Source: Alphaproteobacteria bacterium (GTDB lineage: Bacteria; Pseudomonadota; Alphaproteobacteria; UBA2136; UBA6156). From it: a stretch of 64,000 nt of DNA. The stretch is taken from the NCBI GenBank assembly GCA_027485835.1, contig JAIXQG010000002.1:138232-202231 (forward strand), given 5' to 3'. Under the pieces are notes generated by a model. It saw only the letters and a program-made list of their open reading frames with translations. It searched no databases and was not told the DNA's origin. Made by a program: the position numbers and the translations under genes. Within the stretch, counting starts at the first letter, position 1, and every line of letters begins with the position of its first letter. Positions 42,270 through 57,865 of this stretch are shown one piece after another.

Positions 42270-44336
42270 ATGGCATTTGTGCTTCCATCGGGTTTGACTG
42301 ACCGCATCGCGGGTATTTCTACCGTGCGCTGGCTTATGCTTTTGGCCATATGGGGCATCGCGGTATTCTTATGGGGCACTTTTGGCGCGTGGACCGAGAA
42401 ACGCGGACAAGATGCCGAGCTTCGTTTAGTAACCCCCTATGCCGAACGTGTGGGAGCGTGGCTCACCCAGCAAACCGATATTCTGGACAGCCTGCAAACC
42501 GATACGCGTCTGGCCGAAGGTGCCAGCTTGCCTGCGGGCGTGGAAAGCTTGCCGGTGCAGCGTGTGCTATATGAATTCGCGTACCTCAACCGCATACCGG
42601 ACGTTTATATTCTCGACCTGTTGCAAGGTAAAAACGGCCGCACGGCAGGCGCTGTTGCGCTACCAGAAACCACCTTGAAGCGCTTTGACAGCCTGCCGGA
42701 TCGCGCCGATACGCTGATGCTCGGGCTGGGGTTAGACCGTGCGCAATTGCTGATGCTGCGGCGTGTGAACGCCCCCCTGCCCCAGAAGCTTTATGCGGCT
42801 GTGCCTGTACGGTTCAGCACCCTTGCCAATGCCGTGCCGACTCTGCCGGAGACCTTTCAGGAGCGGACTTCAAGCCTGATTTTCCCCCATACCGAGGGGT
42901 GGGCCCGCTGGAATATGAAAGGGCCGCAGTTAAACTTGATTGAGGAAGAGACCGAAGGTTTAGGCTCTGACGAGGTTGTGCACATCACCACCGGTTCGCG
43001 CCAAACCACCTATGTGCCACTCGGGGGATTACCGGCTGTTGTTCTGGCGGTGGAAGGCCCGCGTGCGCTTACCTCCACTGCCCTATTACCGCGGCTGATG
43101 GTGTTTATCTGGGCCGTCACCATGAGCTTGATGGTATTATGGCAAGAGCCCGGTTTTCAAAAACTACTGGCACAAAGCACCGCCCCCGTTAAGCCCCTTC
43201 TCGGCAAACTTGCACCGTTGGGGGCCCGCATGAAAGGGCTTGGCCGGCTTTTGCCCGTTGACCAGATTGCCCGCGCCTGGCGCGATGCGCGCGGTACGGC
43301 CCCCTTGGTAGAAGGACCCGGCGAGCTTGATGCCAGCGCCTTCCGTTCCTCACCACGGCGTGCATCATCGGGTAAATCTCCGCGAAAGCCTATGTTAAGT
43401 GCACCCGCGCCGGCCGAGTTGGCAACGGCCGGCCCCGGCGCGTTACCTAAACTGGAGCGCCGCAACCGCCGCCGCGGCAGTGCCTTGGCGGCAACTCCTT
43501 CTCGTCCCCACAGCCAAAACGCCAAACCGGCGTGGGTTTCTCCGGAAAAGAAAGCTCCCAAACCTATCTCCTCTCAATCGAGCGACTCTCAGCCCGCGAT
43601 TGATGAGGAAGACTTGCTGGAAGTGGTGAAGGACTGCCTGCGCCAAAAACGGGTTAAGTTGCTGTACCAGCCTGTATATCGCGCCGCCGACAACATGCCG
43701 ATGATCCACGAAGTGTTCGCGCGCCTGGTACGACGCGATGGCAGCCTGATCTCGCCAGGCGACTTTTTGCCAATTGTGTTGAAAAACAAGCTTTCGCTCG
43801 AGCTGGACCTGATGGTGCTGCGCAAAGTGGTGCAGGAGCATTTTGGCCAAGGCCGCGAGCCGCTAACTCCCCTTGCCGTCAATATTTCCAGCAACAGCCT
43901 TGATGGTATTGCCTACCTGCAGGAAATGACCAGCCAAGGCCCACGCGTGCTGCGCCGGATGGGTTTTGAAGTAAGTAGCCAAGAGATGATACGTGACCCC
44001 AAAGCTCTGAAACTTCTCAAAGATTTGCAAAAGCATGGTGGCAATCTGGCGGTCGATTACTTTGGCGGTGGAGAAGCCATGCTGGATGCCAGCAAATCGC
44101 TCGGTTTCAACTACGTGAAGCTCGATTCCGCCAAGTTCATCGAAACGGATGAGGGCAAGAAGAACCTCATCAAGCTGTGCCACTATGCCAATTCCATCGG
44201 GCTACCGATTATTCTCGAAAAAATCGGGCATCGGGATACGGAGGAGTTCGGGCGTCGTGCGGGGGCGCAATTCCTGCAGGGTTATGCCCTGAAAAGCCCG
44301 GATGAAATGCTAACGCTGACGCAATTGGCATCGTAA
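42270..44336 (+). CDS. membrane-anchored sensor protein with C-terminal degenerate EAL domain
   Basis: N-terminal TM + periplasmic region + second TM. The EAL-like C-terminus carries 'EVFAR', 'DYFGGG' instead of DDFGTG, 'EKIG' instead of EGVE, and 'KLD'. Confidence 0.78.
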   Translation: MAFVLPSGLTDRIAGISTVRWLMLLAIWGIAVFLWGTFGAWTEKRGQDAELRLVTPYAERVGAWLTQQTDILDSLQTDTRLAEGASLPAGVESLPVQRVLYEFAYLNRIPDVYILDLLQGKNGRTAGAVALPETTLKRFDSLPDRADTLMLGLGLDRAQLLMLRRVNAPLPQKLYAAVPVRFSTLANAVPTLPETFQERTSSLIFPHTEGWARWNMKGPQLNLIEEETEGLGSDEVVHITTGSRQTTYVPLGGLPAVVLAVEGPRALTSTALLPRLMVFIWAVTMSLMVLWQEPGFQKLLAQSTAPVKPLLGKLAPLGARMKGLGRLLPVDQIARAWRDARGTAPLVEGPGELDASAFRSSPRRASSGKSPRKPMLSAPAPAELATAGPGALPKLERRNRRRGSALAATPSRPHSQNAKPAWVSPEKKAPKPISSQSSDSQPAIDEEDLLEVVKDCLRQKRVKLLYQPVYRAADNMPMIHEVFARLVRRDGSLISPGDFLPIVLKNKLSLELDLMVLRKVVQEHFGQGREPLTPLAVNISSNSLDGIAYLQEMTSQGPRVLRRMGFEVSSQEMIRDPKALKLLKDLQKHGGNLAVDYFGGGEAMLDASKSLGFNYVKLDSAKFIETDEGKKNLIKLCHYANSIGLPIILEKIGHRDTEEFGRRAGAQFLQGYALKSPDEMLTLTQLAS

Positions 44337-44405
44337 CCACCGGCTACCGGAGCGAAGCGTTATTTTGGCAATGACAAAGCCCCTTCCTAAGTATACGATT
44401 AACCC

Positions 44406-45281
44406 ATGACTGACTTGCAGAAGGTTGACCCCGTCGCCGAATTTACCCGCCAGACGCCGCTGGATTTGCGGCTGGTGATGGCGTTGGCTGGCGAGCGCGA
44501 CCTGAATGCGCGCGAGCAGCAGATTGTCGATAAGCTTCAGCAAGAGCGTGGCGAAGGCTTGTTCTCCGACATGCTATATGCCCTCACCCGCAAGAGCTTC
44601 CCCAGCCGCCAAGCTAAGCTGCTGTGGGCGGAAATTGGCGACCATAGAAAGAAGCTGGAAGGCATTTTAAGCCGCGACCCCGGTGTGGCGCTGGCGGCGC
44701 ACGATTATCTGGTGAACGTGAGTGGCCTCCTCAAAACTGCCGGACTGATTGAAGAGCAGAAGTTTCAGGCGCTGGCCACCGTGGCCAGCCGCGACGGTCT
44801 GACCGGCCTTTATGACAAAACCACCTTTGCCCGCCTGCTGGAAGAAGAGCTGGCGCGCCAAGCCCGCTTTGGCCGACCCGTGACGCTGGTGATGATCGAC
44901 ATCGACCACTTTAAGCAACTGAACGACACCCACGGCCACGCCGATGGCGACGTGGTGCTGGCACAGGTAGCCGAGCTGATTAAGCTGCAAGCCCGTAGCA
45001 CCGATAGTTGCGGCCGCTTTGGCGGCGAAGAGTTTGCCGTGGTGCTGCCGGAAGTGGACACCCACGCCGGTACGCTGCTGGCAGAACGTATCCGTATGGG
45101 AGTGGAAAAGGCTTTTATCGGTACACCTTACAGCGTGACCGTGAGCATCGGGATTGCCACGGGCAATAGCGGTGTGAAGGCTGATGATCTTGTGCGTGCC
45201 GCCGACGCCGCGCTGTATGAAGCCAAGCGTGGTGGACGCAATTGCGTGCGGGTGGCGAAGGAAATTGTGACGACTGTCTAA
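44406..45281 (+). CDS. GGDEF-domain diguanylate cyclase
   Basis: Active-site 'GGEEF' with an I-site 'RSTD' five residues upstream. N-terminal ~120-aa domain of unknown function. Confidence 0.88.
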   Translation: MTDLQKVDPVAEFTRQTPLDLRLVMALAGERDLNAREQQIVDKLQQERGEGLFSDMLYALTRKSFPSRQAKLLWAEIGDHRKKLEGILSRDPGVALAAHDYLVNVSGLLKTAGLIEEQKFQALATVASRDGLTGLYDKTTFARLLEEELARQARFGRPVTLVMIDIDHFKQLNDTHGHADGDVVLAQVAELIKLQARSTDSCGRFGGEEFAVVLPEVDTHAGTLLAERIRMGVEKAFIGTPYSVTVSIGIATGNSGVKADDLVRAADAALYEAKRGGRNCVRVAKEIVTTV

Positions 45282-45808
45282 ACGATTTTCAGTGGAAACT
45301 GTTTAAGAGCCTGATAGCGCCCCACGCCTGTACCGTGGGGTTTGTTCGATTTATAGAGTGTCATTGTGTCAGCCGTAAAGTTGGGAATGGTTATATTCTC
45401 AAACATGGAAATATCTACCGATTGAGGTGGATAGCTGGCGAGAGTGATGTGCGGCATGAACTCGGGAAAGACATACGGCGCGATGCCTTGGGCTGTAGCC
45501 GCTGCCTCTTGCAGCTTGTGCAGGTCATAAAGAGGCTCGGTTCGTTCGGTCATCACTACCAGAAAATGAAGGTCGGGAAGCTCGAATATATGCAATTTAA
45601 GAGGACGTATTTCGAGGGCTGACCACTCCCCTGCCGCCAATAATTTGAGGACATGTTCCAACACCTCTGGCGAAGGCTCGCCAAAATATTTCAGGGTCAG
45701 ATGATAATCGTCCGGATGCGTCCAGTTGGCATCCTTGAGATTTGGGCGGATGGTTTGTAGAATCTGCGTAACTTCCGATGGCACAGGCAGTGCGGTGAAG
45801 TAAGCCAT
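45278..45808 (-). CDS. thpR: 2H phosphoesterase family protein (RNA 2',3'-cyclic phosphodiesterase ThpR/LigT-like)
   Basis: Two H-x-T-x motifs (HLTL, HITL). 176 aa. Its stop overlaps the stop of the convergent GGDEF gene. Confidence 0.75.
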   Translation of the reverse strand: MAYFTALPVPSEVTQILQTIRPNLKDANWTHPDDYHLTLKYFGEPSPEVLEHVLKLLAAGEWSALEIRPLKLHIFELPDLHFLVVMTERTEPLYDLHKLQEAAATAQGIAPYVFPEFMPHITLASYPPQSVDISMFENITIPNFTADTMTLYKSNKPHGTGVGRYQALKQFPLKIV

Positions 45809-45810
45809 GG

Positions 45811-47640
45811 CTAATACCCCTCGTGGGCATCCTTAACGTGAATGTCCATCAGCGCTTTACCGTTGAAAGTGCGGGGTTTGGCGGTGATGGCGAGTGTGAG
45901 GGCGCGGCCGTTGCTGTTGGCCAGCAGCGGGCCGAGCGGGCTGTTCATAGCGCCAAAGCACACGGCGTCCAAATTGGTTTGGCCGGTAGCGTCGGACAGG
46001 CGGAGCTTAAGGTGCTCTTGTGTGGCGCCCACGGTTTTGGCGAAGGTGATGCGTGCGCCTTGCAGGGCCAGCACAGGCTCTGGGTTGCCCGGGCCAAAGG
46101 GCGCCAGTTGCTGCATGGCTTGGCACAACGGTTGGGTGAGGCCTGCGGGATTGGTGGTGGCATCTACCTTGAGGCGCGGCGCCAAGCGGTGGCTGAGTGG
46201 CAGGTGGGCGTCTTCGGTGCGGGCGGCCAGCTGTTGGTGCAGGGCTTCGTTCAGTTTGAGACGGAAAGCGGCGAGATTTTGGGCTTCGAGCGTCACACCC
46301 GCGGCCATGGCGTGGCCGCCGCCGGAAAGCAGCGTATCGGCCGCCGCATGCACCGCTGCACCCAAGTTGAGGCCGTGGATACTGCGGCCAGAGCCCTTGA
46401 GGTGGCCGTTGCTGTCGGTGCCCAATACAAACGTGGGCCGGTTGAATTGCTCCTTCACCCGTGCGGCGACGATACCGACGATGCCGGGGTGCCAGTCGTT
46501 ATGGTGCAGCACCAGCGCGAGGGTGTCTTCGGTAAAGGCGTCCTCGGCCTGCTGGCGGGCTTGGGCGAGGATGGTTTTCTCCATCGTCTGGCGTTGTTGG
46601 TTGAGGGTGTTCAGCGTTTCGGCAAACGGGTAAGCCGTGCCGTCATCTTCCGCGAGCAGCAAGTTCAGCGCGGCTTGGGCACTGTCGATACGCCCTGCGG
46701 CATTGAGGCGCGGGGCAAGGCTGAAGCCGAGCGAGGTTGCGGAGATATCGTCCTTCACGCCCGCTACACTGGCCAGCGCGGCCAAGCCACGGTGCTGCCA
46801 TGTGGCCAACTGTTGCAGACCCTTGGCCACCAGCACGCGGTTGGTGCCGGTGAGTTGCATCACATCGGCCACCGTGGCGAGGGCGACGAGGTCAAGCAGG
46901 TGAATCAGGTTCGGTTCGCGCGTACTTGCAAAAAAGCCGTTTTCCCGCAGGTGGCGGTTAAGGGCCATGAGCAGGTAGAAGGCGATGCCACTGCCGCAGA
47001 GGCCTTGCAGCTCGGAGGTATCATCGTAGCGGTGGGGGTTGAGAATGGCGATGGCGGGAGGGAGCGAACCGTCCGGTTGGTGGTGGTCGGTGACAATCAC
47101 ATCTAAGCCCAGCTCCGCCGCGCGGTTGAGGGCGGCGTGGGCGGTGGTGCCGGTATCCACCGTCACCAGCAGTTGGGTGCCCATCTGCTTAAGTTTGTCC
47201 ATAGCGCCGGGGGTTGGGCCGTAGCCTTCGGTCAGGCGGTCCGGGATATACAGCAGCGGCTGCACGCCAAGCTGGCGCAGGTAGCGGGTGAGAATGGCGG
47301 TGGCGCAGGTGCCGTCCACATCGTAGTCGCCAAAAATCGCGATAATTTCTTTGTTGCGAATGGCGGCAATGAGACGCTCCACAGCCTGCGGCATGGATTT
47401 GAGCGTTGCGGGGTCCGGCAGGGTTTTCAAATTGGGACTCAGGAAGGCCGTGGCGGCTGCGCCTTCTGAATAGCCACGGGCTGCCAGAATAGCCGCGGTG
47501 GGGGCGGGTAAACCCGTGGCTTGCGCCAGTGCCGCGCCAAGGCGGTAGGCGTCCGACGACGTGTCCGGCATCAGCCAATACTGGCCAAGCACGGAGAGTT
47601 GTGAGCTGGCGGAGAACGGCTGGCGTGACGAAGTTAACAT
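45811..47640 (-). CDS. recJ: single-stranded-DNA-specific exonuclease RecJ
   Basis: DHH and DHHA1 motifs (DHHQPDG..., GGGH). Confidence 0.9.
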   Translation of the reverse strand: MLTSSRQPFSASSQLSVLGQYWLMPDTSSDAYRLGAALAQATGLPAPTAAILAARGYSEGAAATAFLSPNLKTLPDPATLKSMPQAVERLIAAIRNKEIIAIFGDYDVDGTCATAILTRYLRQLGVQPLLYIPDRLTEGYGPTPGAMDKLKQMGTQLLVTVDTGTTAHAALNRAAELGLDVIVTDHHQPDGSLPPAIAILNPHRYDDTSELQGLCGSGIAFYLLMALNRHLRENGFFASTREPNLIHLLDLVALATVADVMQLTGTNRVLVAKGLQQLATWQHRGLAALASVAGVKDDISATSLGFSLAPRLNAAGRIDSAQAALNLLLAEDDGTAYPFAETLNTLNQQRQTMEKTILAQARQQAEDAFTEDTLALVLHHNDWHPGIVGIVAARVKEQFNRPTFVLGTDSNGHLKGSGRSIHGLNLGAAVHAAADTLLSGGGHAMAAGVTLEAQNLAAFRLKLNEALHQQLAARTEDAHLPLSHRLAPRLKVDATTNPAGLTQPLCQAMQQLAPFGPGNPEPVLALQGARITFAKTVGATQEHLKLRLSDATGQTNLDAVCFGAMNSPLGPLLANSNGRALTLAITAKPRTFNGKALMDIHVKDAHEGY

Positions 47641-49693: not shown

Positions 49694-50605
49694 ATGACCT
49701 TAAGCACTGTGACAAGTCGGATTGAAACAACACGCCTTTTGGGCGGTTTGCCGCTGCGTGACCACCTGCTTCAGCAGGCCCGTACCGCCGTTGCCGCTCT
49801 TGGGGCACCGGTACGTTTGTGTATTGTGCAAGTGGGTAACCATGCGCCAAGCGCCGTTTACATCCGTAACAAACAAAAAGCCTGCGCCGCGGTAGGGATT
49901 GCTACCGAAGTAGTTCATTTACACGAGGGGCAAGGCGAACACGCGTTACACGCCACCTTAAAAGCCCTTGCGATAGAGCCGGATGTCACCGCCGTGCTGG
50001 TACAAACCCCCCTGCCCCGTGGTTGGGATGTTCAGGCCGCGCTCGACCTTGTACCTGCCTTTAAGGATGTAGACGGACTTAGCCGTGCCAGTGCCGCAAT
50101 GCGTTTTACGCAGCCGGAACAGGCTTTGTTGCCCGCAACGCCTCTCGGGGTAATGCGTTTGCTTGAAGCGGCAGGGATTGATGTTGCCGGAGCCGCGATT
50201 GCGGTTATCGGCAAAGGTATGGTGGTCGGCGCGCCGCTGCGCGAGATGTTGCATAATGCCGGTGCCCATGTGGTGGAGATTGATAAAGATACCCCACACC
50301 CTGCGAGCCTGACCCGCGATTGCGACGTGATTGTTGCCGCCGCAGGTGTACCGGGATTAGTCACTGCCGAGTGGGTGAAGCCCGGTGCGGTGGTGATTGA
50401 TGTGGGGCTCACCCGCCATGACGGACTCCTGTTAGGAGACGTGAGCCGGATGGAGGTGGAAGGTGTTGCCGGCACCCTCACCCCCGTGCCCGGTGGCGTG
50501 GGCCCCATGACGGTTGCCAGCCTGATTACGAACATTTGCGACGCCGCCTGCCTGCAACTTGGGCGGCCGCGTACCCCTTGGAAGGTTGACGCGGGCGCCG
50601 AGTAA
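49694..50605 (+). CDS. folD: bifunctional methylenetetrahydrofolate dehydrogenase / methenyl-THF cyclohydrolase
   Basis: FolD motifs (PxPxGxDV, TPVPGGVGPMTVA). Confidence 0.92.
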   Translation: MTLSTVTSRIETTRLLGGLPLRDHLLQQARTAVAALGAPVRLCIVQVGNHAPSAVYIRNKQKACAAVGIATEVVHLHEGQGEHALHATLKALAIEPDVTAVLVQTPLPRGWDVQAALDLVPAFKDVDGLSRASAAMRFTQPEQALLPATPLGVMRLLEAAGIDVAGAAIAVIGKGMVVGAPLREMLHNAGAHVVEIDKDTPHPASLTRDCDVIVAAAGVPGLVTAEWVKPGAVVIDVGLTRHDGLLLGDVSRMEVEGVAGTLTPVPGGVGPMTVASLITNICDAACLQLGRPRTPWKVDAGAE

Positions 50606-50640
50606 GCGCAGTCTGGCGGCACTTTAGGAGTGCAAAAACA

Positions 50641-51270
50641 ATGACTAAACGTTTGATTTCCCCCTTCCTTTTGCTCGGGTGCCTATTAGCAGCCCCAGCC
50701 ATTGCGCAAGAGATTTCTGCCACCCGCACAATCGTGAGCGCTACCGCCAGCGCGTTTCAGGTGATTGACGATACCCGCGCTGAAAACCGCGATGAAGACT
50801 TGATGTATATTCAAGCTGCCGTGGCCCGTAATGAAGCCGCGATTGAAGCTGCCAAGGCGATTTTGAAAACCAGTTTTGATGCCGATGTGCGCATGTTGGC
50901 GGGTGACAGCCTGAAGACCCATGACACCGAACTGCGTACCCTCAAGGCATGGCTGCAATTACATGGCCCCAAGGCCGTGGCGGCACCCGCCCAGCCTGCG
51001 CCCGTGACACCGCCTAAAGTTGTTGCCACAGCTACCGAACCTGCGGAGACTGTACCCGTCATGGCCATGCCCGTGAGCCCCAGCTTGCCTGACGCTCCGG
51101 TTAAGCCCCTGCCCGCCGCAACTGAAGTGACGATTACCACACCGCGTGCCGTAAGTGACACCGACCCCTTGCCGGGTGCGCACCTCAGCATGAACCCCGT
51201 GGAAGAACCCACCATGCAGCTGCTGGATGTTCCGCCGGTGCCGGTTTCGTTAACTCCCCTCACCCAATAA
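50641..51270 (+). CDS. secreted DUF305-like protein lacking the HH motif, with Pro-rich C-terminus
   Basis: Signal peptide, helical DUF305-like core (DLMYIQAAVARNEAAIEAAK) and a Pro/Ala/Val-rich tail. Confidence 0.55.
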   Translation: MTKRLISPFLLLGCLLAAPAIAQEISATRTIVSATASAFQVIDDTRAENRDEDLMYIQAAVARNEAAIEAAKAILKTSFDADVRMLAGDSLKTHDTELRTLKAWLQLHGPKAVAAPAQPAPVTPPKVVATATEPAETVPVMAMPVSPSLPDAPVKPLPAATEVTITTPRAVSDTDPLPGAHLSMNPVEEPTMQLLDVPPVPVSLTPLTQ

Positions 51271-51291
51271 CCAACTTAAAGCAATAACGTT

Positions 51292-51756
51292 ATGAAATAC
51301 TCCGCCCTTCTTCTTGCAGCTCTTGCCTCGCTATCTCTTCCCTTACTGGCAGCCGATAAAGGGAGTCATCATGGCCACACGAACCATGTCGCCCATGACG
51401 CTGCCGCCGCTGGCGCGCCCAGCACGCTGGAGCTGCAACAGGCCAACTCCGTGATGCACAAAGACATGGATATTACCTATACCGGCGATGCCGATATTGA
51501 TTTTCTGCGCGGCATGATTGCCCACCACCAAGGGGCTGTGGAAATGGCCCGCGTACAGCTACGCTATGGTCGCGATGCCAAGGTAACCCGCTTGGCGGAA
51601 GAGATTATCCGTGCCCAAAATCTCGAAATCGCGTGGATGCAAAAGTGGCTGACCCAACTGGAGGCGCAACCGCGTAAGCCGATTGTGACCGAACCGCGCC
51701 GCGGGATGTGGAATGACTCCAACTGGAGCGGCAAAACCTGGTTGGGTGAACGCTAA
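51292..51756 (+). CDS. secreted DUF305 family protein (HH-motif metal-binding four-helix bundle)
   Basis: Signal peptide, then 'DIDFLRGMIAHHQGAVEMARVQLRYGRDAKVTRLAEEIIRAQNLEIAWMQKWL'. Confidence 0.72.
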   Translation: MKYSALLLAALASLSLPLLAADKGSHHGHTNHVAHDAAAAGAPSTLELQQANSVMHKDMDITYTGDADIDFLRGMIAHHQGAVEMARVQLRYGRDAKVTRLAEEIIRAQNLEIAWMQKWLTQLEAQPRKPIVTEPRRGMWNDSNWSGKTWLGER

Positions 51757-51759
51757 ACC

Positions 51760-52011
51760 ATGGCCAAACTCCCTTCGCGCTACTACGCGTTTGCCGTGCC
51801 GCTGTTGTTAAGCTTTGTCATGTCCTTTGTGGTTTCCGGCATTTCTACGCTGCGCGGTGTTGGGCTAGCGCCCGATTTTCTGAATATCTGGATGCATGCG
51901 TGGATGGCCTCGTGGATGGTGGCCTTCCCTGTGGTACTGTTTGTGTTACCTGCCGTGCGGAACATTGTCGGCCTGTTTGTGGAAGAGCCGACGCGTCCGG
52001 CGAAAGGCTAA
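51760..52011 (+). CDS. small 2-TM membrane protein (DUF2798-like)
   Basis: 83 aa with two hydrophobic helices. The start lies 4 nt after the previous stop. Confidence 0.5.
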   Translation: MAKLPSRYYAFAVPLLLSFVMSFVVSGISTLRGVGLAPDFLNIWMHAWMASWMVAFPVVLFVLPAVRNIVGLFVEEPTRPAKG

Positions 52012-52017
52012 TTTAGC

Positions 52018-52626
52018 ATGGCGTCTTACTGCATCTTCGATACCGAATACACGACATGGGAAGGCGCACAGGCCACCCGCTGGAACGGGCGCGGGCAGCA
52101 TCGCGAGGTGTTTCAGATAGGTGCGGTACGGGTGGAAGAGGGTAAAGCTTGGGAGGAACTGGAAACGCTCAGCTTGCTGATACGCCCCCAGCTTAACCCC
52201 GTATTAAGCGCTTACGCGACCCAGCTTACGGGCATAACTCAAGACATGTTGGAACGTGATGGGCTGGAGACGCCTGAGGCTTTGGCGCGGTTTGCCGCGT
52301 TTAGCGGTAACTTGCCCGTATTTTCCAACGGCATGGACCTGCATATTGTGGCGGAAACCTGCGGGTTGCAAAAAGTGATCATGCCGTTAGATCCGCGCCA
52401 GTATTTCTCGCTTCACTATCCCCTCTATGCGGCTTTGGATGCGCATTTTGCGTTTGATCACCGCGAGTATGTCTCTGGCCGCCTGCATGAGCTTGCGCGC
52501 CTTGAGCCCCCTAGCAAGATGGGTGGCGTGCATAATGCGCTGCACGATGTGTGGTCGCTTTTTGCGACCTGCGCATGGCTGAAACAGCAGGGTACCGATG
52601 TTATCGGCGACCTTTTGAAGGCTTAA
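52018..52626 (+). CDS. DEDDh 3'-5' exonuclease, ERI-1/KapD-like (paralog 1)
   Basis: Exo I 'IFDTEYTTWEG', 'IRPQLNPVLSAYATQLTGITQDML' (ERI-1-like segment), Exo III 'HNALHDV'. Confidence 0.78.
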   Translation: MASYCIFDTEYTTWEGAQATRWNGRGQHREVFQIGAVRVEEGKAWEELETLSLLIRPQLNPVLSAYATQLTGITQDMLERDGLETPEALARFAAFSGNLPVFSNGMDLHIVAETCGLQKVIMPLDPRQYFSLHYPLYAALDAHFAFDHREYVSGRLHELARLEPPSKMGGVHNALHDVWSLFATCAWLKQQGTDVIGDLLKA

Positions 52627-53037
52627 CTACTTTTTGTCGCAGTTGGCGGTGCACACCGTTTCTTCCGTTACCGTACCGCCGCAGCGCACGTGGGCGGCGC
52701 GGGCCGAGGCCAAGCAGTTTTCCTCGCACTTGCGCGGGCTGCAATCGCGTTCGTCCAGCATGGAACGCTCGTAGCCCCAGCCTGCGCCACGGTAGCCACC
52801 GCTGCCTAAACCGATACTGGTATGGAACCCGCCCGGGTTGTAGCAGCTACGGGCCATTTGGCGGCAGTTTTCGACACAGGTGTTGGACATGATAATGACG
52901 TTGGAACTGCATAAACGGCCACTTTCGGTTGCGGGCTCGTTCAGAGTGTAGTTGGTGCGGTACACGGGGCCGCAGGCGGCTAATACAGATACGAAGGCTA
53001 TAGTACAGATCAAACCTGTGAGACGATGGATGTTCAT
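52627..53037 (-). CDS. Cys-rich lipoprotein (136 aa)
   Basis: Signal peptide with lipobox 'VLAACG' and 12 Cys in the mature part. Convergent with exonuclease paralog 1 with no spacer. Confidence 0.5.
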   Translation of the reverse strand: MNIHRLTGLICTIAFVSVLAACGPVYRTNYTLNEPATESGRLCSSNVIIMSNTCVENCRQMARSCYNPGGFHTSIGLGSGGYRGAGWGYERSMLDERDCSPRKCEENCLASARAAHVRCGGTVTEETVCTANCDKK

Positions 53038-53092
53038 ATCTTCATATTACCATGATTCAGAATTCGTTACGCCCATTTTACCGTAAGAAATT

Positions 53093-53127
53093 TGACATTT
53101 CCTATAGACATATGTATACACGAATCA
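53093..53127 (+). promoter_or_regulatory. candidate promoter TTGACA-N17-TATACA upstream of exonuclease paralog 2
   Basis: Read directly from sequence in the AT-rich divergent intergenic region. Confidence 0.3.
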
Positions 53128-53154
53128 CACGAGGCCTACAGAGGGAATACCACT

Positions 53155-53835
53155 ATGCCTGATGCATCCCATGTTATTTTTGACACTGAATATGCCACTG
53201 ATGAAGGCGCTCGCGATAGCGACTGGGGTTGCCTCGGTCACCACCGCGAAATCATTCGCATCGGTGCAGCGCGCATCGTTCCGGGCCAACCTTGGGAGAG
53301 CTTTGAAACGCTCGACTTGCTGGTTAATCCGGTATTTGCAGCGCATACCGCCTATACCGAACAGATCACCGGCATCACCCAGGAAATGTTGGATGTAGAT
53401 GGTTGTGATGCTGAACGTGCTTTCCGGCAACTTTATATGTTTATTGATGGTTTGCCCGCGCTTTCGAACGGCAATGACATCAACAAGATTGCCGAAACTG
53501 CCGGACTACAGGGATTCGTCATGCCTTTTGACCCCCTCGAATTCGGTAGTGTACTGAAGCCGATGTATCGGGAACTGGCCAAACACGTTGCCCCTGAATT
53601 GCCTGAGCGGCCATGGGTGAACCACTCCTCCGGCACACTCCACAGACTGGTGGGCATTGACCTGCCGGAAGGATTGGGGGAAGTGCACAACCCGTTGCGC
53701 AACGTCTGGTCGATCCACGTCACACTGGAAGCCCTGCACGAAAGGTACAATGCCGACGTCGTTTCGGAAGTTCTGGATGGAATGGCCAAACGAAAGAGTG
53801 CGTTTAATTACCATTATATGCGAATGGACGATTAA
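53155..53835 (+). CDS. DEDDh 3'-5' exonuclease, ERI-1/KapD-like (paralog 2)
   Basis: Start at MPDASHVIFDTEYATDEG. Same motif set as paralog 1 ('EQITGITQEML', 'HNPLRNV'). Confidence 0.78.
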   Translation: MPDASHVIFDTEYATDEGARDSDWGCLGHHREIIRIGAARIVPGQPWESFETLDLLVNPVFAAHTAYTEQITGITQEMLDVDGCDAERAFRQLYMFIDGLPALSNGNDINKIAETAGLQGFVMPFDPLEFGSVLKPMYRELAKHVAPELPERPWVNHSSGTLHRLVGIDLPEGLGEVHNPLRNVWSIHVTLEALHERYNADVVSEVLDGMAKRKSAFNYHYMRMDD

Positions 53836-53837
53836 TG

Positions 53838-53912
53838 ACATGCCCGCCCAGAGACATCTGGGCGGGCATGTCGTTTTGGCGATAACTAAAAAAAGCCCCA
53901 AATCGGGGCTTT
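53838..53912. terminator. two consecutive hairpin terminators (catgcccgccc...gggcgggcatg; aaaaaaagcccc-aaat-cggggcttttttt)
   Basis: The second is bidirectional (A7/T7) and also follows the minus-strand rpoD stop. Confidence 0.6.
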
Positions 53913-53926
53913 TTTTGGTTTTGATT

Positions 53927-55966
53927 CTAGTTCTCGGCGTAGCTCTTGATACCACGGGCGCGGGACGGGTGGCGCAGCTTCTTGAGGGCTTTCGCCTCAA
54001 TCTGGCGGATACGCTCACGGGTCACGTTGAACTGCTGGCCGACTTCTTCCAGCGTGTGGTCGGTGCTCATACCGATACCGAAGCGCATACGCAGCACACG
54101 CTCTTCACGCGGGGTCAGGCTGGCCAGAATCTTGGTTACGCCGTCGCGCAGGTTGGTTTGCACGGCAGCATCCAACGGCATTACGGCGTTGGTGTCTTCA
54201 ATGAAGTCGCCGAGCGTACTGTCTTCTTCGTCGCCCACCGGGGTTTCGAGGGAGATCGGCTCCTTGGCAATCTTCTGCACCTTGCGGACCTTATCGACCG
54301 GCATGTTCAGCTTCTTGGCCAGCTCTTCCGGAGTAGGCTCGCGGCCCAGCTCGTTCATCATCTGGCGTTGGGTGCGGTTCATTTTGTTGATCGTCTCGAT
54401 CATGTGCACCGGAATACGGATGGTACGGGCTTGGTCGGCAATGCTGCGGGTGATGGCCTGACGGATCCACCACGTGGCATAGGTACTGAACTTGTAGCCG
54501 CGACGGTATTCGAACTTATCGACCGCCTTCATCAGGCCGATGTTGCCTTCCTGAATGAGATCGAGGAACTGCAAGCCGCGGTTGACGTACTTCTTGGCGA
54601 TGGAGATCACCAGACGCAGGTTGGCTTCGACCATTTCCTTCTTCGCGACAGAGGCTTCGCGCTCGCCCTTACGGGTGGTGCCGACAACCTGTTTGAACTC
54701 GGAGACAGTCAGACCGTACGGCTTGGTGAAGTCGTTCAGGGCGTTCTGTTGCTTCTTGAATTCCTTTTCGATGCCTTCCAGCTTGGCTACCAGCTCCTTA
54801 ACGCCCTTTTTGGCCTTCTTCGCCATCTTCTCGAGAAGATCATCGTCGTTTTCGTGACCCAGCCAGGTGTCGAGGTAGTCCATACGGTTCACGCCGGCTT
54901 TGTCGACGACCAAGCGCATCAGTTCGCCTTCGGCCTTGGTGAGGTTGCGGGAGACTTCAAACAGCGTCTGCATCAACTCATCGACACGGTTGTTGGTGAG
55001 CGGAATCTCGCGCATGATCGGCTTCATCTTTTCCAGCAGGTCGGCGTGCTTCTTGGTCTGCTTGGGGTCTACCTTGTTACCGGCCAGACGCTTGACGTCG
55101 ATTTTGGCAAGTTCAATCGCCATCGGCTCCAGCTCAGCAAACAGCTCTACCAGTTTCGGCATCAGCTGCGCTTCCATGGCGGCCAGCGACATGATTTCGT
55201 TATCCTCATCAGCTTCTTCGGCGTTCTCTTCTTCCGAATCGGCTTTCTCTTCCTTGTCGTCCTTGTCGGCAGAGCCATCGGCGCTGATGGCAGACGGCTT
55301 GGAATCGACGACATCGTCATCCTTGGCGTTCAAAGCGGCTTCGGCTTCGTCTAGTTCTTCCTGAGACGGACCCAAGGCGGCCGCGAGGTCGACGACATCA
55401 CGCAGGAAGCGCTTGCCGTCTTGCACTTGTTGGAACCACTCCAGCACCTGACCGTAGCACCACACGCTGCTGAAGAGACCGTCGTTCAGTTTGATCTTAC
55501 CGGCTTCAATGCGCTTGGCCAATTCCACTTCGCCTTCGCGGGTCAGCAGCTCGACGCTGCCCATCTCACGCAGGTACATGCGCACGGGGTCGTCGGTACG
55601 GCCGTAGTCATCGGCCACCGCGTTGGCGGGCTGGGCAATAAGGGCGCCCTTGCTGTTGCCAAAGAAGGCCGGGTGCGCGGCCATCATATCGCCTTCGGAA
55701 TCGTCGGCACGCTTGCTGGTCACCGGCGCGCCAACGGCGACGACAACCTGCATTTGGTCATCATCGTCTTCGTCAGTCAGCACGACTTCGTCGGCCGCTT
55801 CCTGTACGGGAGCGTCGTCGATGTCGACAACAAGGATGTCCTCGTCTACGAGGTCTTCCGAGCTGCTGCGGGTGCCAGTGGGTTGCGTCATCGTGCGGGT
55901 CCTTTCCATCGGGCTCTCAATCTCAAGCGGAACATCGTTCAAAACCGCTGCCAGCGCGGCTTTCAT
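53927..55966 (-). CDS. rpoD: RNA polymerase primary sigma factor (sigma-70)
   Basis: Regions 1.2-4.2 conserved ([66 protein letters not shown]). An acidic spacer is present. The true start may be an internal Met (MERTRT or MTQPTG). Confidence 0.96.
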
Positions 55967-56074: not shown

Positions 56075-57865
56075 CTAGATGGGGCGCCGCGGCGATGGTG
56101 TCAAGTCTGTGGATGAAGTTTCTTTCAATTCCTTGAACTTATTCCAGTTCTCGGGAGAAAACCAATCGGCATTTTTGACAATTTCTGTATACTTAGAACG
56201 ACTTACCGATTGAGCCTGCCAGAGCTGGTGTTGCTCATGGAAAAGCACCAGTGCGTCGGTGTCGTCCGGCAGGGTCATCACCCCCGTGCTGGTGAGCAGG
56301 TCGGCTACCGTGGTGCTATGCGGGCCGAGCTGGAGGTCTTGCGCCAAGTCTTCCGCCGGCAACTTCAGCACCACGTAGGCGCGCACTACGGCTTGCGCCA
56401 GCTCGGCTAGCGGGCCCGCGGCAAAGGTAATACCTCCGAGAACTTCGTCGACTTGCGGCAAAATCTGCGGCCAGCGGCATACCAGCGCTAACAAGGTGCG
56501 CGTAGCGGCATCACCCTGAATGGCCGGTTTGTAGTCGCGCGGTGCTTGCATCACGCTGGCGGTTTTGGGCGTTTTGCTGCCGTTTGCACCGCCACGGGTG
56601 CCGCGCACGGCTTCCCACAGCTTATCCTTCAGGGTTTGGCCGTAGGCGCGGCGGATGGTGGTGTTCTTAATTTCCGCCAGCAGTTGCGCCATTTCGGCTT
56701 CTACTGTGGCGCGACCGTCTGCGGTGGTAACATCCGCAGCACCAGCGAGCTGTTGCCAGAGCAGATTTTCCAGCGACGTGGTTTGCGTGAGGAGGTTGCG
56801 GAAGGTCGCGATACCATCTTTTTGCACCAAGCTGTCGGGGTCTTCTCCCTGGGGTAGGAAGACAAAGCTAAGGGTGCGGCCGGGCTCGAGCACCCCCAAC
56901 GCGCGGTTGGCCATACGCAGGGCGGCGGTGCGGCCTGCGGCGTCGCCATCGAGGCAGACAATCGGGTGCGGGTGTTGCTGCCAGAGAAGCGTGATTTGCT
57001 CGGCGGTGACGGCGGTACCAAGGGGTGCCACCGCGGTTTTGAAGCCGGCTTGGTAGAGCGCGATGACATCCATATAGCCTTCCACCAGCACAATCTGGCC
57101 CGTGGTTTTGATGTGCGGCTTGGCGCGGTGCAGGTTGTAGAGCAGGTAGGATTTATTAAAAAACGGCGTTTCCGGCGAGTTTAAATATTTCGGCTCACCT
57201 TTGCCCATAACCCGCCCACCAAAGCCGACGACGCGGCCTTGATTATCGTGAATCGGGAACATCAAACGGTCACGGAAGCGGTCGTAATCGCGTCCTTTTT
57301 CGGCCGATTTTTCCGACATGGTGGTGAGACCGGTGGATTTTAATAGATCTGGTGAAAAGCCCTCGTTTAACAGTGCGTTTTTGGTGGCATCCCAACTGTC
57401 TGGGGCGTAACCGAGCTGGAACTCCTGCACCGTGCTATCGGTCAGGCTGCGTTTTTCGATGTACGCACGCGAGGCTTCGTTCAGGCTGCGTTGGTAGAAG
57501 ACGGCAGCGCGCTCTAGCGCTTTGTAGCCATCCTGCCGTTTTTGCGCGGCGGCGGGGTCGGCAGGCTCGTTTTCCGGCAATTTAATGCCGATCTGGCGGG
57601 CGAGACGGCCGACCACTTCGCTAAAGGTACCGCCTTGGGTTTCTTGTACAAAGGTAATCACGTCACCGCCCGCGCCGCAGCCAAAGCAGTAGTAGCTGTT
57701 TTGGTCTTCCCGCACGTGGAAGCTGCCGGATTTCTCGTTATGGAACGGGCAGCAGCCCCACCAGGCGCGACCCTTTTTCTTCATGTTGGGCACGACTTTG
57801 CGCACCTCATCGACTATATTGAGGCGGGATTTGATCTGGTCTATGACGTGCGGCGGATACTTCAT
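56075..57865 (-). CDS. dnaG: DNA primase
   Basis: Zn-ribbon CCPFHNEKSGSFHV...YCFGCGAGG, plus a TOPRIM domain. Confidence 0.93.
   Translation of the reverse strand: MKYPPHVIDQIKSRLNIVDEVRKVVPNMKKKGRAWWGCCPFHNEKSGSFHVREDQNSYYCFGCGAGGDVITFVQETQGGTFSEVVGRLARQIGIKLPENEPADPAAAQKRQDGYKALERAAVFYQRSLNEASRAYIEKRSLTDSTVQEFQLGYAPDSWDATKNALLNEGFSPDLLKSTGLTTMSEKSAEKGRDYDRFRDRLMFPIHDNQGRVVGFGGRVMGKGEPKYLNSPETPFFNKSYLLYNLHRAKPHIKTTGQIVLVEGYMDVIALYQAGFKTAVAPLGTAVTAEQITLLWQQHPHPIVCLDGDAAGRTAALRMANRALGVLEPGRTLSFVFLPQGEDPDSLVQKDGIATFRNLLTQTTSLENLLWQQLAGAADVTTADGRATVEAEMAQLLAEIKNTTIRRAYGQTLKDKLWEAVRGTRGGANGSKTPKTASVMQAPRDYKPAIQGDAATRTLLALVCRWPQILPQVDEVLGGITFAAGPLAELAQAVVRAYVVLKLPAEDLAQDLQLGPHSTTVADLLTSTGVMTLPDDTDALVLFHEQHQLWQAQSVSRSKYTEIVKNADWFSPENWNKFKELKETSSTDLTPSPRRPI

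What the first reader, a model, noticed from the sequence alone, without database searches (positions are those of the whole stretch)
52018..53835. Tandem ERI-1/KapD-like DEDDh exonuclease paralogs flanking a Cys-rich lipoprotein
Two clearly paralogous 3'-5' exonuclease genes (each with D-x-E, an ERI-1-like LTGITQ(D/E)ML segment and H-x4-D) lie 0.5 kb apart on the same strand. A minus-strand 136-aa lipoprotein with 12 cysteines separates them. The lipoprotein's stop abuts paralog 1 with zero spacer, and its promoter region is shared divergently with paralog 2. Duplicated small RNA-directed exonucleases with an extracytoplasmic Cys-rich protein is an undescribed arrangement. Possible roles are small-RNA / cyclic-oligonucleotide turnover or a defence/anti-defence module.
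Basis: partly seen in the sequence, partly recalled or inferred. Interest (0 to 1): 0.6.

Follow-up and report, generated by a model that had tools for sequence, protein, structure and literature searches.

The report
Two old exonuclease paralogs, chance neighbours
Two distantly related copies of an ordinary ERI-1/KapD-like 3'-5' exonuclease gene sit either side of a resident lipoprotein gene in a variable patch next to rpoD. Related genomes show this is not a conserved three-gene system, and the second copy has lost one catalytic residue.

Summary
The genes are real. exo1 is 52018-52626 (+), a Cys-rich lipoprotein is 52627-53037 (-), and exo2 is 53155-53835 (+). The two exonucleases are paralogs at 42% identity. 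Their closest solved or named relatives are the ERI-1 family (CRN-4, ERI3, ERI1) and KapD.

1. exo2 does not have H-x4-D. It has H178-x4-N183, while 63 of 65 family members keep the Asp, including its closest relative (67% identity).
2. The trio is not a conserved unit.
   - The lipoprotein is the constant resident of the interval between folD/DUF305 and rpoD. It occurs with no exonuclease in five relatives, some with 83-90% identical lipoprotein.
   - The nearest exo1-bearing relative carries an unrelated ORFan in the exo2 slot.
   - 37 loci with exo homologs from other lineages hold one copy each and no lipoprotein.
   - exo1 and exo2 fall in different subclades and were sisters in 0 of 200 bootstraps, so this is not a recent tandem duplication.

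No defence, mobile-element or cas genes are nearby.

Best reading: exo1 is an intact DEDDh 3'-5' exo(ribo)nuclease, probably co-transcribed with DUF2798. exo2 is a conserved, separately promoted but catalytically compromised paralog. The lipoprotein is an unrelated envelope protein. Interest is low.

The parts
51760..52011 (+). DUF2798 small membrane protein (83 aa). It ends 6 bp upstream of exo1 on the same strand, so the two are probably co-transcribed.
   Evidence: Pfam PF11391, E=1e-18. It lies next to the exo gene on the same strand in the window, L006, L001, L045 and L046/47.
52018..52626 (+). exo1: a 202-aa standalone DEDDh 3'-5' exonuclease with the full catalytic set D8, E10, D107, H172, D177.
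   Evidence: Pfam RNase_T 43.2 bits. Catalytic columns checked. AF2 model pLDDT 91.8. Foldseek matches ERI1, CRN-4, DnaQ and Cas2-DEDDh. Profile hits to CRN-4 and ERI3.
52627..53037 (-). Cys-rich lipoprotein of 136 aa with lipobox LAAC22 and 10 invariant Cys in the mature part. Precomputed annotation places it in family PF27284 (Aq_678). It is the constant resident gene of this interval.
   Evidence: AF2 gives a two-helix, two-strand core with a Gly-rich disordered loop at residues 69-96. No significant match to any solved fold.
53092..53120 (+). Promoter-like element for exo2: TTGACA (53092-53097), a 17-nt spacer, then TATACA (53115-53120). A conserved 5' leader CACGAGGCnTAC and a GA-rich ribosome-binding site follow.
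   Evidence: These blocks are conserved with L044 while the rest of the spacer has diverged. The strict consensus scan did not call it.
53155..53835 (+). exo2: a 226-aa diverged paralog with D10, E12, D108 and H178, but N183 in place of the last catalytic Asp. It has a clade-specific insertion (RPWVNH) and a C-terminal extension of about 25 aa.
   Evidence: Pfam matches only the N-terminal half, 23.7 bits. dN/dS against its L044 ortholog is about 0.1.
53834..53920 (.). Two hairpins (53834-53875 and 53884-53920, the second flanked by A and T runs) between the convergent exo2 and rpoD genes. They are probably terminators.
   Evidence: Inverted repeats I1 and I2. Terminator scan. A sub-threshold Rfam Thr_leader hit here is explained by these hairpins.

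Best explanation
This is a small variable patch of chromosome between the conserved folD-DUF305-DUF305 block and rpoD-dnaG, in an uncultured alphaproteobacterial lineage. Its one constant gene is the Cys-rich Aq_678-type lipoprotein, an envelope protein. That protein more plausibly belongs with the two secreted His-rich DUF305 (CopM-like) proteins beside it than with the exonucleases.

DUF2798 and copies of a standalone ERI-1/KapD-like DEDDh exonuclease come and go in this interval. In this genome two anciently diverged paralogs from different subclades lie on opposite sides of the lipoprotein.

exo1 keeps all five DEDDh residues. By homology it should be a Mg2+-dependent, two-metal-ion 3'-5' exonuclease that removes nucleotides from single-stranded 3' ends, most likely of RNA (3'-end trimming or turnover of short oligonucleotides). 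It is probably transcribed together with DUF2798.

exo2 has its own conserved promoter and its lineage is under purifying selection. Here, however, it carries Asn in place of the metal-binding Asp of motif III, so it is expected to be a much weaker enzyme or inactive.

Shown: gene structure, paralogy, phylogeny, residue loss, and lack of co-conservation. Inferred: substrate, operon structure, loss of activity, and the role of the lipoprotein.
For: Identity of the exonucleases.

Catalytic residues:
- D, E, D and H are kept in all 65 sequences.
- The last Asp is missing only in exo2 (Asn) and P0074 (Tyr).
- exo2's nearest relatives P0073 and P0076 to P0082 all have Asp.
- The same exo2 protein is listed from NCBI and Logan sources, and the Logan contig shows the same gene order.

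Old paralogs:
- exo1 and exo2 are 42-44% identical.
- Bootstrap support: exo1+P0002 100%, exo2+P0073 100%, exo1+exo2 as sisters 0%.

No conserved trio (gene orders between DUF305 and rpoD):
- Window: DUF2798, exo1, lipo(-), exo2.
- L006: DUF2798, exo1, lipo(-), ORFan.
- L044: lipo(-), exo2-type, rpoD.
- L046/47: lipo(-), exo, DUF2798.
- L001 and L045: lipo(-), Y16D, DUF2798, exo.
- L002 and L007: DUF2798, lipo(-), no exo and no relic.
- L003-5 and L050: lipoprotein only.

Other lineages: 35 species-representative genome loci plus L048/49 each hold a single copy, with no lipoprotein or DUF2798 within 8 kb. Contexts there are housekeeping: fabF-mltG-lgt-GGDEF-queA-pheA-exo-atp in nine loci and the dcw cluster.

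Selection: dN/dS is about 0.1 for exo1 against L006 and for exo2 against L044.

Surroundings: housekeeping genes only, with no defence hits beyond the generic DEDDh model. No relative was found in viral contigs.

Effect of the Asp-to-Asn change: in the DEDDh enzyme TREX1, D200N degrades no dsDNA and is dominant in heterodimers (bioRxiv 10.1101/2022.02.25.481063). That D200 is the motif III Asp equivalent to exo2 position 183 is from my own knowledge, not from that paper.

KapD is a proven 3'-exoribonuclease related to Eri-1 and 3'hExo (PMC11736430). DUF305 is the domain of the copper-binding protein CopM (PMC4335983).
Against: - The exonuclease stays inside this roughly 2-kb interval, beside the lipoprotein or DUF2798, in four different gene orders across six genomes. 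That could reflect selection for clustering rather than local shuffling.
- The sample is small: about 11 related loci, several on 1-2 kb contigs where only one side of the lipoprotein is visible.
- dS is near saturation, so dN/dS is only qualitative. It averages over both branches and cannot say whether exo2 has been relaxed since the Asn change.
- Asn can still bind a metal ion weakly, so loss of activity is predicted, not measured.
- The substrate (RNA, DNA or dinucleotides) is inferred only from the nearest characterised relatives, at 14-22% identity.
Confidence: 0.7

Rival explanations
1. The real functional unit is the pair DUF2798 plus exonuclease. A small two-helix membrane protein recruits or regulates the nuclease at the inner membrane. 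The lipoprotein and exo2 are bystanders.
For: DUF2798 is adjacent to the exo gene on the same strand, with gaps of 5-89 bp, in the window, L006, L001, L045 and L046/47. This holds even though order and position relative to the lipoprotein differ.
Against: DUF2798 occurs without an exo gene in L002 and L007. The exo2-type gene has no adjacent DUF2798 in the window or L044. No DUF2798 lies near exo homologs in 37 loci of other lineages. All five linked cases come from one narrow lineage, so shared ancestry can explain the adjacency.
Confidence: 0.12
2. exo2 is a pseudo-enzyme. It binds 3' ends without cutting, or pairs with exo1 to modulate it, much as TREX1 D200N protomers suppress wild-type protomers.
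For: Only the last catalytic Asp is changed, while every other invariant residue of the subfamily is kept. The ORF is intact and has a conserved promoter. Its lineage is under purifying selection.
Against: The closest ortholog P0073 and all other relatives keep Asp, so the change is a single recent substitution in one genome. Another family member lost the same Asp to Tyr with no second copy seen in the 7 kb of its contig that could be read, which looks like sporadic decay. ERI-1-type nucleases are not known to need dimers (own knowledge). No multimer prediction could be run.
Confidence: 0.1
3. exo2 is a normally active exonuclease. Either Asn183 is tolerated or the base call is wrong.
For: Asp and Asn differ by one transition (GAC to AAC). 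Asn can bind metals. The rest of the active site is intact.
Against: The identical protein is recorded from both NCBI and Logan sources, though these may rest on the same reads. The position is Asp in 63 of 65 relatives. The equivalent change abolishes dsDNA degradation in TREX1.
Confidence: 0.12
4. The three genes form one functional module for defence, anti-defence, cyclic-oligonucleotide turnover or small-RNA turnover.
For: The genes are tightly packed, with a zero spacer and a shared divergent spacer. There is a generic match to the PADLOC CRISPR-associated DEDDh model. The lipoprotein is adjacent to an exo gene in the window, L006, L044 and L046/47.
Against: The predicted compartments differ, cytoplasmic nucleases against an exported lipoprotein. 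No cas, CBASS, toxin or mobile genes lie nearby. No viral relatives were found. The family sits in housekeeping synteny elsewhere.
Confidence: 0.04
5. The pair arose by a recent tandem duplication in this genome.
For: Same strand, 0.5 kb apart, clear paralogy.
Against: Identity is only 42%. Each copy is closer to genes in other organisms: exo1 to P0002 (83%) and P0003 (59%), exo2 to P0073 (67%). The two were sisters in 0 of 200 bootstraps. No flanking direct repeats were found.
Confidence: 0.01

Closest known systems
ERI-1 / 3'hExo family nuclease domain (human ERI1, ERI2 and ERI3; C. elegans CRN-4)
   Same: Same DEDDh fold and catalytic motifs, including a long insert between strand 1 and strand 2 and an (L/I)TGI(T/I)Q segment. 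These are the best full-length profile matches among solved structures: CRN-4 E=1.3e-8 and ERI3 E=6e-7. They also give the highest query TM-scores: 1w0h 0.74 and CRN-4 0.73.
   Different: Identity is only 14-21%. There is no SAP or other RNA-binding accessory domain, as the proteins are just the 200-aa nuclease core. The host is bacterial. No substrate is known. exo2 lacks the last catalytic Asp.
Bacillus subtilis KapD (NCBIfam NF005838), a 3'-exoribonuclease of the spore crust (PMC11736430)
   Same: A standalone bacterial DEDDh protein of about 205 aa, related to Eri-1. It is the NCBIfam model matched by the most subfamily members, 10 of 13.
   Different: Scores of about 27 bits fall far below the 169-bit equivalog cut-off. 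There is no sporulation context and no CotY partner. The lineage is alphaproteobacterial, with relatives in CPR bacteria.
CRISPR-associated DEDDh/DnaQ domains (Cas2-DEDDh 8fy9/8fyc; S. thermophilus DnaQ 8h18/8h2f)
   Same: Top Foldseek E-values, a PADLOC DEDDh model hit at E=8.5e-12, and a compact nuclease core.
   Different: No cas genes or CRISPR array were seen in the roughly 22 kb examined around the locus. The protein is not fused to Cas2. The sequence match covers mainly the N-terminal half.
TREX1 D200N/D200H (disease alleles of a DEDDh exonuclease)
   Same: exo2 carries what I take, from my own knowledge, to be the same kind of substitution: motif III Asp to Asn. In TREX1 this change removes dsDNA degradation while the protein still folds and forms dimers.
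   Different: TREX1 is an obligate dimeric DNase. Nothing shows that exo2 dimerises or binds DNA.

Membership tests
DEDDh (DnaQ-like) 3'-5' exonuclease superfamily, Pfam PF00929 RNase_T | Sequence score above the Pfam gathering threshold (24 bits) | tested here: met
   exo1 scores 43.2 bits across the full domain. exo2 scores 23.7 bits in its N-terminal half only, just under the cut-off. exo2's membership rests on its 42% identity to exo1.
DEDDh (DnaQ-like) 3'-5' exonuclease superfamily, Pfam PF00929 RNase_T | All five catalytic residues present: D-x-E, D, H-x4-D | tested here: not met
   Met for exo1 (D8, E10, D107, H172, D177). Not met for exo2 (D10, E12, D108, H178, N183).
DEDDh (DnaQ-like) 3'-5' exonuclease superfamily, Pfam PF00929 RNase_T | RNase H-like alpha/beta fold | tested here: met
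   The exo1 AF2 model has pLDDT 91.8. It gave 88 PDB matches at E<=0.001, and the 50 listed were all DEDDh or DnaQ-type exonucleases. exo2 was not modelled.
ERI-1 / 3'hExo family | Nuclease domain closest to ERI-type nucleases | tested here: met
   The profile search ranks CRN-4 first and ERI3, ERI2 and ERI1 among the next hits. The best query TM-scores are to 1w0h and CRN-4.
ERI-1 / 3'hExo family | N-terminal SAP domain or other RNA-recognition module, as in ERI-1 and 3'hExo | tested here: not met
   The proteins are 202 and 226 aa with the D-x-E motif at residues 8-12, so there is no room for an N-terminal domain.
ERI-1 / 3'hExo family | 3'-5' exoribonuclease activity on single-stranded RNA 3' ends | not testable with these tools
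   This needs an enzyme assay.
KapD (NCBIfam NF005838, equivalog) | Score at or above the curated cut-off of 169 bits | tested here: not met
   exo1 scores 27.4 bits and exo2 has no hit. The best E-value among the 13 subfamily members is 1e-9.
Defence-associated DEDDh nucleases (Cas2-DEDDh, CBASS or other PADLOC systems) | Encoded next to the other genes of a defence system | tested here: not met
   Only the generic DEDDh model matches. The neighbours are folD, DUF305, DUF2798, rpoD, dnaG, greA, recJ and similar genes. The same holds in relatives.
Conserved three-gene module (exo - lipoprotein - exo) | Co-occurrence and conserved order across genomes | tested here: not met
   The order was seen only in the window. 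The lipoprotein occurs alone in five relatives, one exonuclease in four or five, and a single copy without the lipoprotein in 37 other loci.
Bacterial lipoprotein | Signal peptide ending in a lipobox [LVI][ASTVI][GAS]C | tested here: met
   Residues 1-22 are hydrophobic and end in L-A-A-C22. A-C-G-P is invariant in all 10 homologs. No dedicated predictor was run.
Pfam PF27284 (Aq_678) | Match to the family model | tested here: inconclusive
   Precomputed annotation lists PF27284 for the window protein and all 9 homologs. It is marked 'weak' at two places. The local Pfam copy returned no such hit, so I could not rescore it.

The most novel reading that the evidence does not exclude
In this alphaproteobacterial lineage the exonuclease may be held by selection in a mini-cluster with the two-helix membrane protein DUF2798 and the envelope lipoprotein. 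The Asp-to-Asn copy (exo2) would then be a non-cutting 3'-end binder or partner that tunes exo1. Together they would form a membrane-associated nuclease system with a built-in pseudo-enzyme regulator, which has not been described for bacterial ERI-like nucleases.
Probability: 0.07. Interest if true: 0.45.

Novelty: new member of a known kind. Interest (0 to 1): 0.18.

Why it matters
As it stands the finding matters little. It adds two members to an uncharacterised and rare bacterial subfamily of ERI-1/KapD-like exonucleases. The exhaustive search with exo2 found only 41 relatives at E<=1e-10 among 1.84 billion cluster representatives.

It also shows how tight packing can look like a module when the genes are really independent tenants of a variable interval.

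Two small points could interest RNase specialists:
- The subfamily is a stable housekeeping-context gene in gut alphaproteobacterial MAGs (the pheA-exo-atp block) and also occurs in CPR bacteria. It might therefore fill an RNA 3'-end or oligonucleotide-turnover role there.
- The natural Asp-to-Asn variant offers a ready-made catalytic-residue test.

Tried and rejected
- Recent tandem duplication: rejected by the phylogeny and bootstraps and by the absence of flanking repeats.
- Defence or mobile-element context: PADLOC gave only the generic DEDDh model. PHROGs gave only a weak polymerase-exonuclease match for exo1 and nothing for exo2, the lipoprotein or DUF2798. The viral-contig scan found no relative. 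Neighbours are housekeeping genes.
- Exonuclease relics in exo-less relatives: sensitive tblastn on the L002 gap, the L007 spacer, the L006 exo2 slot and L050 found nothing below E=0.09. The differences are clean presence or absence.
- The second gene beside the exonuclease in L001 (199 aa) and the L006 slot gene (203 aa): suspected to be exo2 orthologs, but they are unrelated ORFans with no Pfam or PHROG hits.
- Lipoprotein fold: the AF2 core is confident but there is no significant PDB match, best E=0.43. The afdb50 library was unavailable.
- Metagenome scan with the lipoprotein profile: it gave only two loci, one of them informative (L050: rpoD, lipoprotein, DUF305 with no exo).
- Rfam scan of 50500-54200: only a sub-threshold Thr_leader hit on the terminator hairpins.
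- Literature on DUF2798: nothing functional.
- Source genome: it was not among the species representatives in genome contigs, so the organism is known only as a relative of unnamed Alphaproteobacteria MAGs.
Full report
**1. What is in the sequence**

The ORF list and the DNA give this gene order:
- folD, 49694-50605 (+)
- two secreted DUF305 proteins, 50641-51270 and 51292-51756 (+)
- DUF2798, 51760-52011 (+)
- exo1, 52018-52626 (+)
- a 136-aa ORF, 52627-53037 (-)
- exo2, 53155-53835 (+)
- two hairpins
- rpoD, 53927-55966 (-)
- dnaG, 56075-57865 (-)

Pfam confirms DUF305, DUF2798 and RNase_T; folD, rpoD and dnaG are named from the Pfam families of their orthologs in related loci.

exo1 and exo2 are 42% identical over 207 residues, E=5e-54.

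The minus-strand protein has a hydrophobic N-terminus ending in the lipobox L-A-A-C22 and 12 Cys. Ten Cys of the mature part are invariant across homologs.

The exo1 stop and the lipoprotein stop are adjacent bases. The lipoprotein and exo2 diverge across 117 bp.

**2. Corrections to the observation**

- *exo2 start.* The 247-aa ORF starting at TTG 53092 is an artefact of ORF listing. That TTG is part of a TTGACA hexamer followed 17 nt later by TATACA. Both hexamers, a leader block (CACGAGGCnTAC) and the ATG at 53155 are conserved with the ortholog in L044, while the rest of the spacer has diverged. Public gene calls also give 226 aa.
- *exo2 motif III.* It reads H178-NPLR-N183, not H-x4-D.
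  - In a 65-sequence alignment of the family, the D-x-E, the motif II Asp and the His are universal. The final Asp is missing only in exo2 (Asn) and in P0074 (Tyr).
  - The position aligns with the catalytic Asp of CRN-4 and ERI3.
  - The nearest exo2 relatives, P0073 (67% identity) and P0076 to P0082, all keep Asp.
  - The identical exo2 protein is recorded from both NCBI and Logan sources, and the Logan contig shows the same gene order.

**3. What the exonucleases are**

- exo1 passes the Pfam RNase_T threshold. exo2 scores just below it and matches only in its N-terminal half.
- An AlphaFold2 model of exo1 built on 13 subfamily sequences is confident: pLDDT 91.8, pTM 0.89.
- Foldseek against the PDB returned DEDDh or DnaQ-type nucleases throughout the 50 matches listed. 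The best E-values go to CRISPR-linked DnaQ (8h2f) and the best query TM-scores go to 3'hExo/ERI1 (0.74) and CRN-4 (0.73).
- A profile of the subfamily finds CRN-4 (E=1.3e-8, full length), then ERI3, ERI2 and ERI1 among its next best solved relatives.
- Among NCBI's named families, KapD is hit by 10 of 13 subfamily members, but at about 27 bits against a 169-bit cut-off.
- KapD has been shown to be a 3'-exoribonuclease related to Eri-1 and 3'hExo (PMC11736430).

"ERI-1/KapD-like" is therefore a fair nearest-neighbour label. It is not membership: there is no SAP domain, identity is 14-21%, and the KapD cut-off is failed.

**4. Are the two copies a recent duplication?**

No.
- exo1 groups with P0002 (83%), P0003 (59%) and P0004 (56%).
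- exo2 groups with P0073 (67%), and more loosely with the P0005/P0006/P0074 clade.
- Bootstrap support is 100% for exo1+P0002 and 100% for exo2+P0073. exo1+exo2 were sisters in 0 of 200 replicates.
- No direct repeats flank either gene.

**5. Is the trio conserved?**

I recovered the homologous interval from relatives through exact-protein look-ups and collection scans. Gene orders between DUF305 and rpoD:

| Locus | Order |
|---|---|
| Window | DUF2798, exo1, lipo(-), exo2 |
| L006 (exo1 83%) | DUF2798, exo1, 171-bp spacer, lipo(-), unrelated 203-aa ORFan |
| L044 (exo2 ortholog, 1-kb contig) | lipo(-), exo2-type, rpoD(-) |
| L046/47 (P0003) | lipo(-), exo, DUF2798 |
| L045 and L001 | lipo(-), T4_Y16D-like, DUF2798, exo (plus two ORFans in L001) |
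| L002 and L007 (lipoprotein 83-90%) | DUF2798, lipo(-); no exo and no relic |
| L050 (lipoprotein 89%) and L003-5 | lipoprotein only |

The lipoprotein is thus the constant tenant. The exonuclease is present in roughly half of the relatives, and two copies occur only here.

Outside this lineage, 35 loci from species-representative genomes plus L048/49 each carry a single homolog, with no lipoprotein or DUF2798 within 8 kb. In nine of those loci the gene sits in a housekeeping block, fabF-mltG-lgt-GGDEF-queA-pheA-exo-atp. In a marine lineage it sits inside the dcw cluster.

**6. Surroundings**

Within about 10 kb on either side the window encodes EAL and GGDEF proteins, a LigT-type phosphoesterase, recJ, a phasin, a DAO oxidoreductase, folD, greA, a GNAT, Sua5/YrdC and an LD-carboxypeptidase.
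- There are no integrases, transposases, cas genes or recognised defence genes. PADLOC returns only its generic DEDDh model.
- No relative was found in viral contigs.
- GC content at the locus (0.54) is within the window's range.

**7. The lipoprotein**

- Precomputed annotation files it in PF27284 (Aq_678). My Pfam copy did not return this.
- AF2 gives a confident core of strand, long helix, helix, strand, with a disordered Gly-rich loop at residues 69-96.
- No solved structure matches significantly.
- It is exported while the exonucleases have no signal peptide, so direct cooperation is unlikely (inference).
- Its constant neighbours are two secreted His-rich DUF305 proteins. DUF305 is the domain of the periplasmic copper-binding protein CopM (PMC4335983). 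A role in envelope or metal handling is a plausible lead and no more than that.

**8. How it most likely works**

- *exo1.* By homology to ERI-1-type DEDDh enzymes, D8, E10, D107 and D177 hold two Mg2+ ions. H172 activates the water that attacks the last phosphodiester of a single-stranded 3' end. Its 6-bp spacing from DUF2798 suggests one transcript.
- *exo2.* It has its own conserved promoter. Compared with its ortholog it has evolved under constraint (dN/dS about 0.1, with dS near saturation), so it is not a pseudogene. Replacing a metal-binding Asp with Asn abolishes dsDNA degradation in TREX1 (D200N). That D200 is the equivalent motif III Asp is from my own knowledge. The copy in this genome is therefore probably weak or inactive.

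All activity statements are inference.

**9. Rivals**

| Rival | Confidence |
|---|---|
| DUF2798-exo as the true unit | 0.12 |
| exo2 fully active despite Asn183, or a base-call error | 0.12 |
| exo2 as a non-catalytic partner of exo1 | 0.10 |
| Three-gene defence or signalling module | 0.04 |
| Recent tandem duplication | 0.01 |

The DUF2798 link is the only recurring association: five of five exo1-type or P0005-type loci with visible flanks. All five come from one narrow lineage, and each gene also occurs without the other.

**10. Verdict**

The family label is right. The module interpretation is not supported.

This is a new member, in fact a pair of members, of a known kind of enzyme, sitting in a variable chromosomal interval. 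The subfamily is rare: the exhaustive search with exo2 gave 41 hits at E<=1e-10 among 1.84 billion representatives. It is also uncharacterised, which gives it modest value for RNase biology. Nothing here would surprise a specialist. Interest is 0.18.

Noticed in passing
window 51760-52626; L006 5066-5931; L001 4561-5516; L045 2571-3534; L046 209-1227: DUF2798, a small two-helix membrane protein, lies next to the exonuclease gene on the same strand (gaps of 5-89 bp) in every exo1-type or P0005-type locus with visible flanks, even though the order varies. It is absent near exo homologs in 37 loci of other lineages, and it occurs without an exo gene in L002 and L007.
   Followed up: partly
P0074 (L045 2911-3534): A second family member independently lost the last catalytic Asp (HNAMRY). 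Its close relatives P0005 and P0006 keep it, which suggests sporadic decay of this residue in the subfamily.
   Followed up: partly
L001 5603-5905 (-); L045 1999-2511 (+): A T4_Y16D-like gene (PF26092 by precomputed annotation; phrog_839, E=2e-23) sits between the lipoprotein and DUF2798 in two relatives. It is a phage-type protein of unknown function inside the same variable interval, and it is absent from the window.
   Followed up: partly
L006 6598-7209 (+); L001 3849-4448 (-) and 3459-3722 (-); L002 6439-6624 (-): The slot between the lipoprotein (or the exonuclease) and rpoD holds different ORFans in different relatives, with no Pfam or PHROG match. The rpoD-proximal spacer behaves as a small hot spot for gene gain and loss.
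   Followed up: partly
window 50641-51756: Two tandem secreted DUF305 proteins with His-rich N-terminal regions (HHGHTNHVAHD in the second) are the lipoprotein's conserved neighbours. DUF305 is the domain of the copper-binding protein CopM, so the Cys-rich lipoprotein may belong to an envelope metal-handling set.
   Followed up: partly
window 52624-52629 vs L006 5932-6102: The zero spacer between the convergent exo1 and lipoprotein genes is specific to this genome; L006 has a 171-bp spacer there. No terminator separates the genes in the window, so exo1 transcripts would run antisense into the lipoprotein gene.
   Followed up: no
window 53830-53920: Two strong hairpins lie between exo2 and rpoD. 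The second is flanked by A and T runs and looks like a bidirectional terminator. They produce a sub-threshold Rfam Thr_leader hit (28.5 bits against a gathering score of 55).
   Followed up: yes
L012, L014, L027, L032, L034, L036, L037, L040, L041 (exo at about 8001-8580): In these MAGs, most labelled Alphaproteobacteria, the single exo homolog is embedded in a conserved housekeeping block (fabF, mltG, lgt, GGDEF, queA, pheA, then exo, then the ATP synthase F0 genes). There it looks like a stably inherited core gene.
   Followed up: partly
L048/L049 6001-6612: In a marine metagenome lineage the homolog P0010 lies inside the dcw cell-division cluster, between ftsI and murE, together with several unannotated ORFs.
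   Followed up: no
window 42270-47640: Upstream neighbours are an EAL protein, a GGDEF protein, a LigT-type 2H phosphoesterase and recJ, that is, c-di-GMP turnover and nucleic-acid end-processing genes 4-10 kb from the exonucleases. No linkage was seen in relatives beyond recJ synteny.
   Followed up: no
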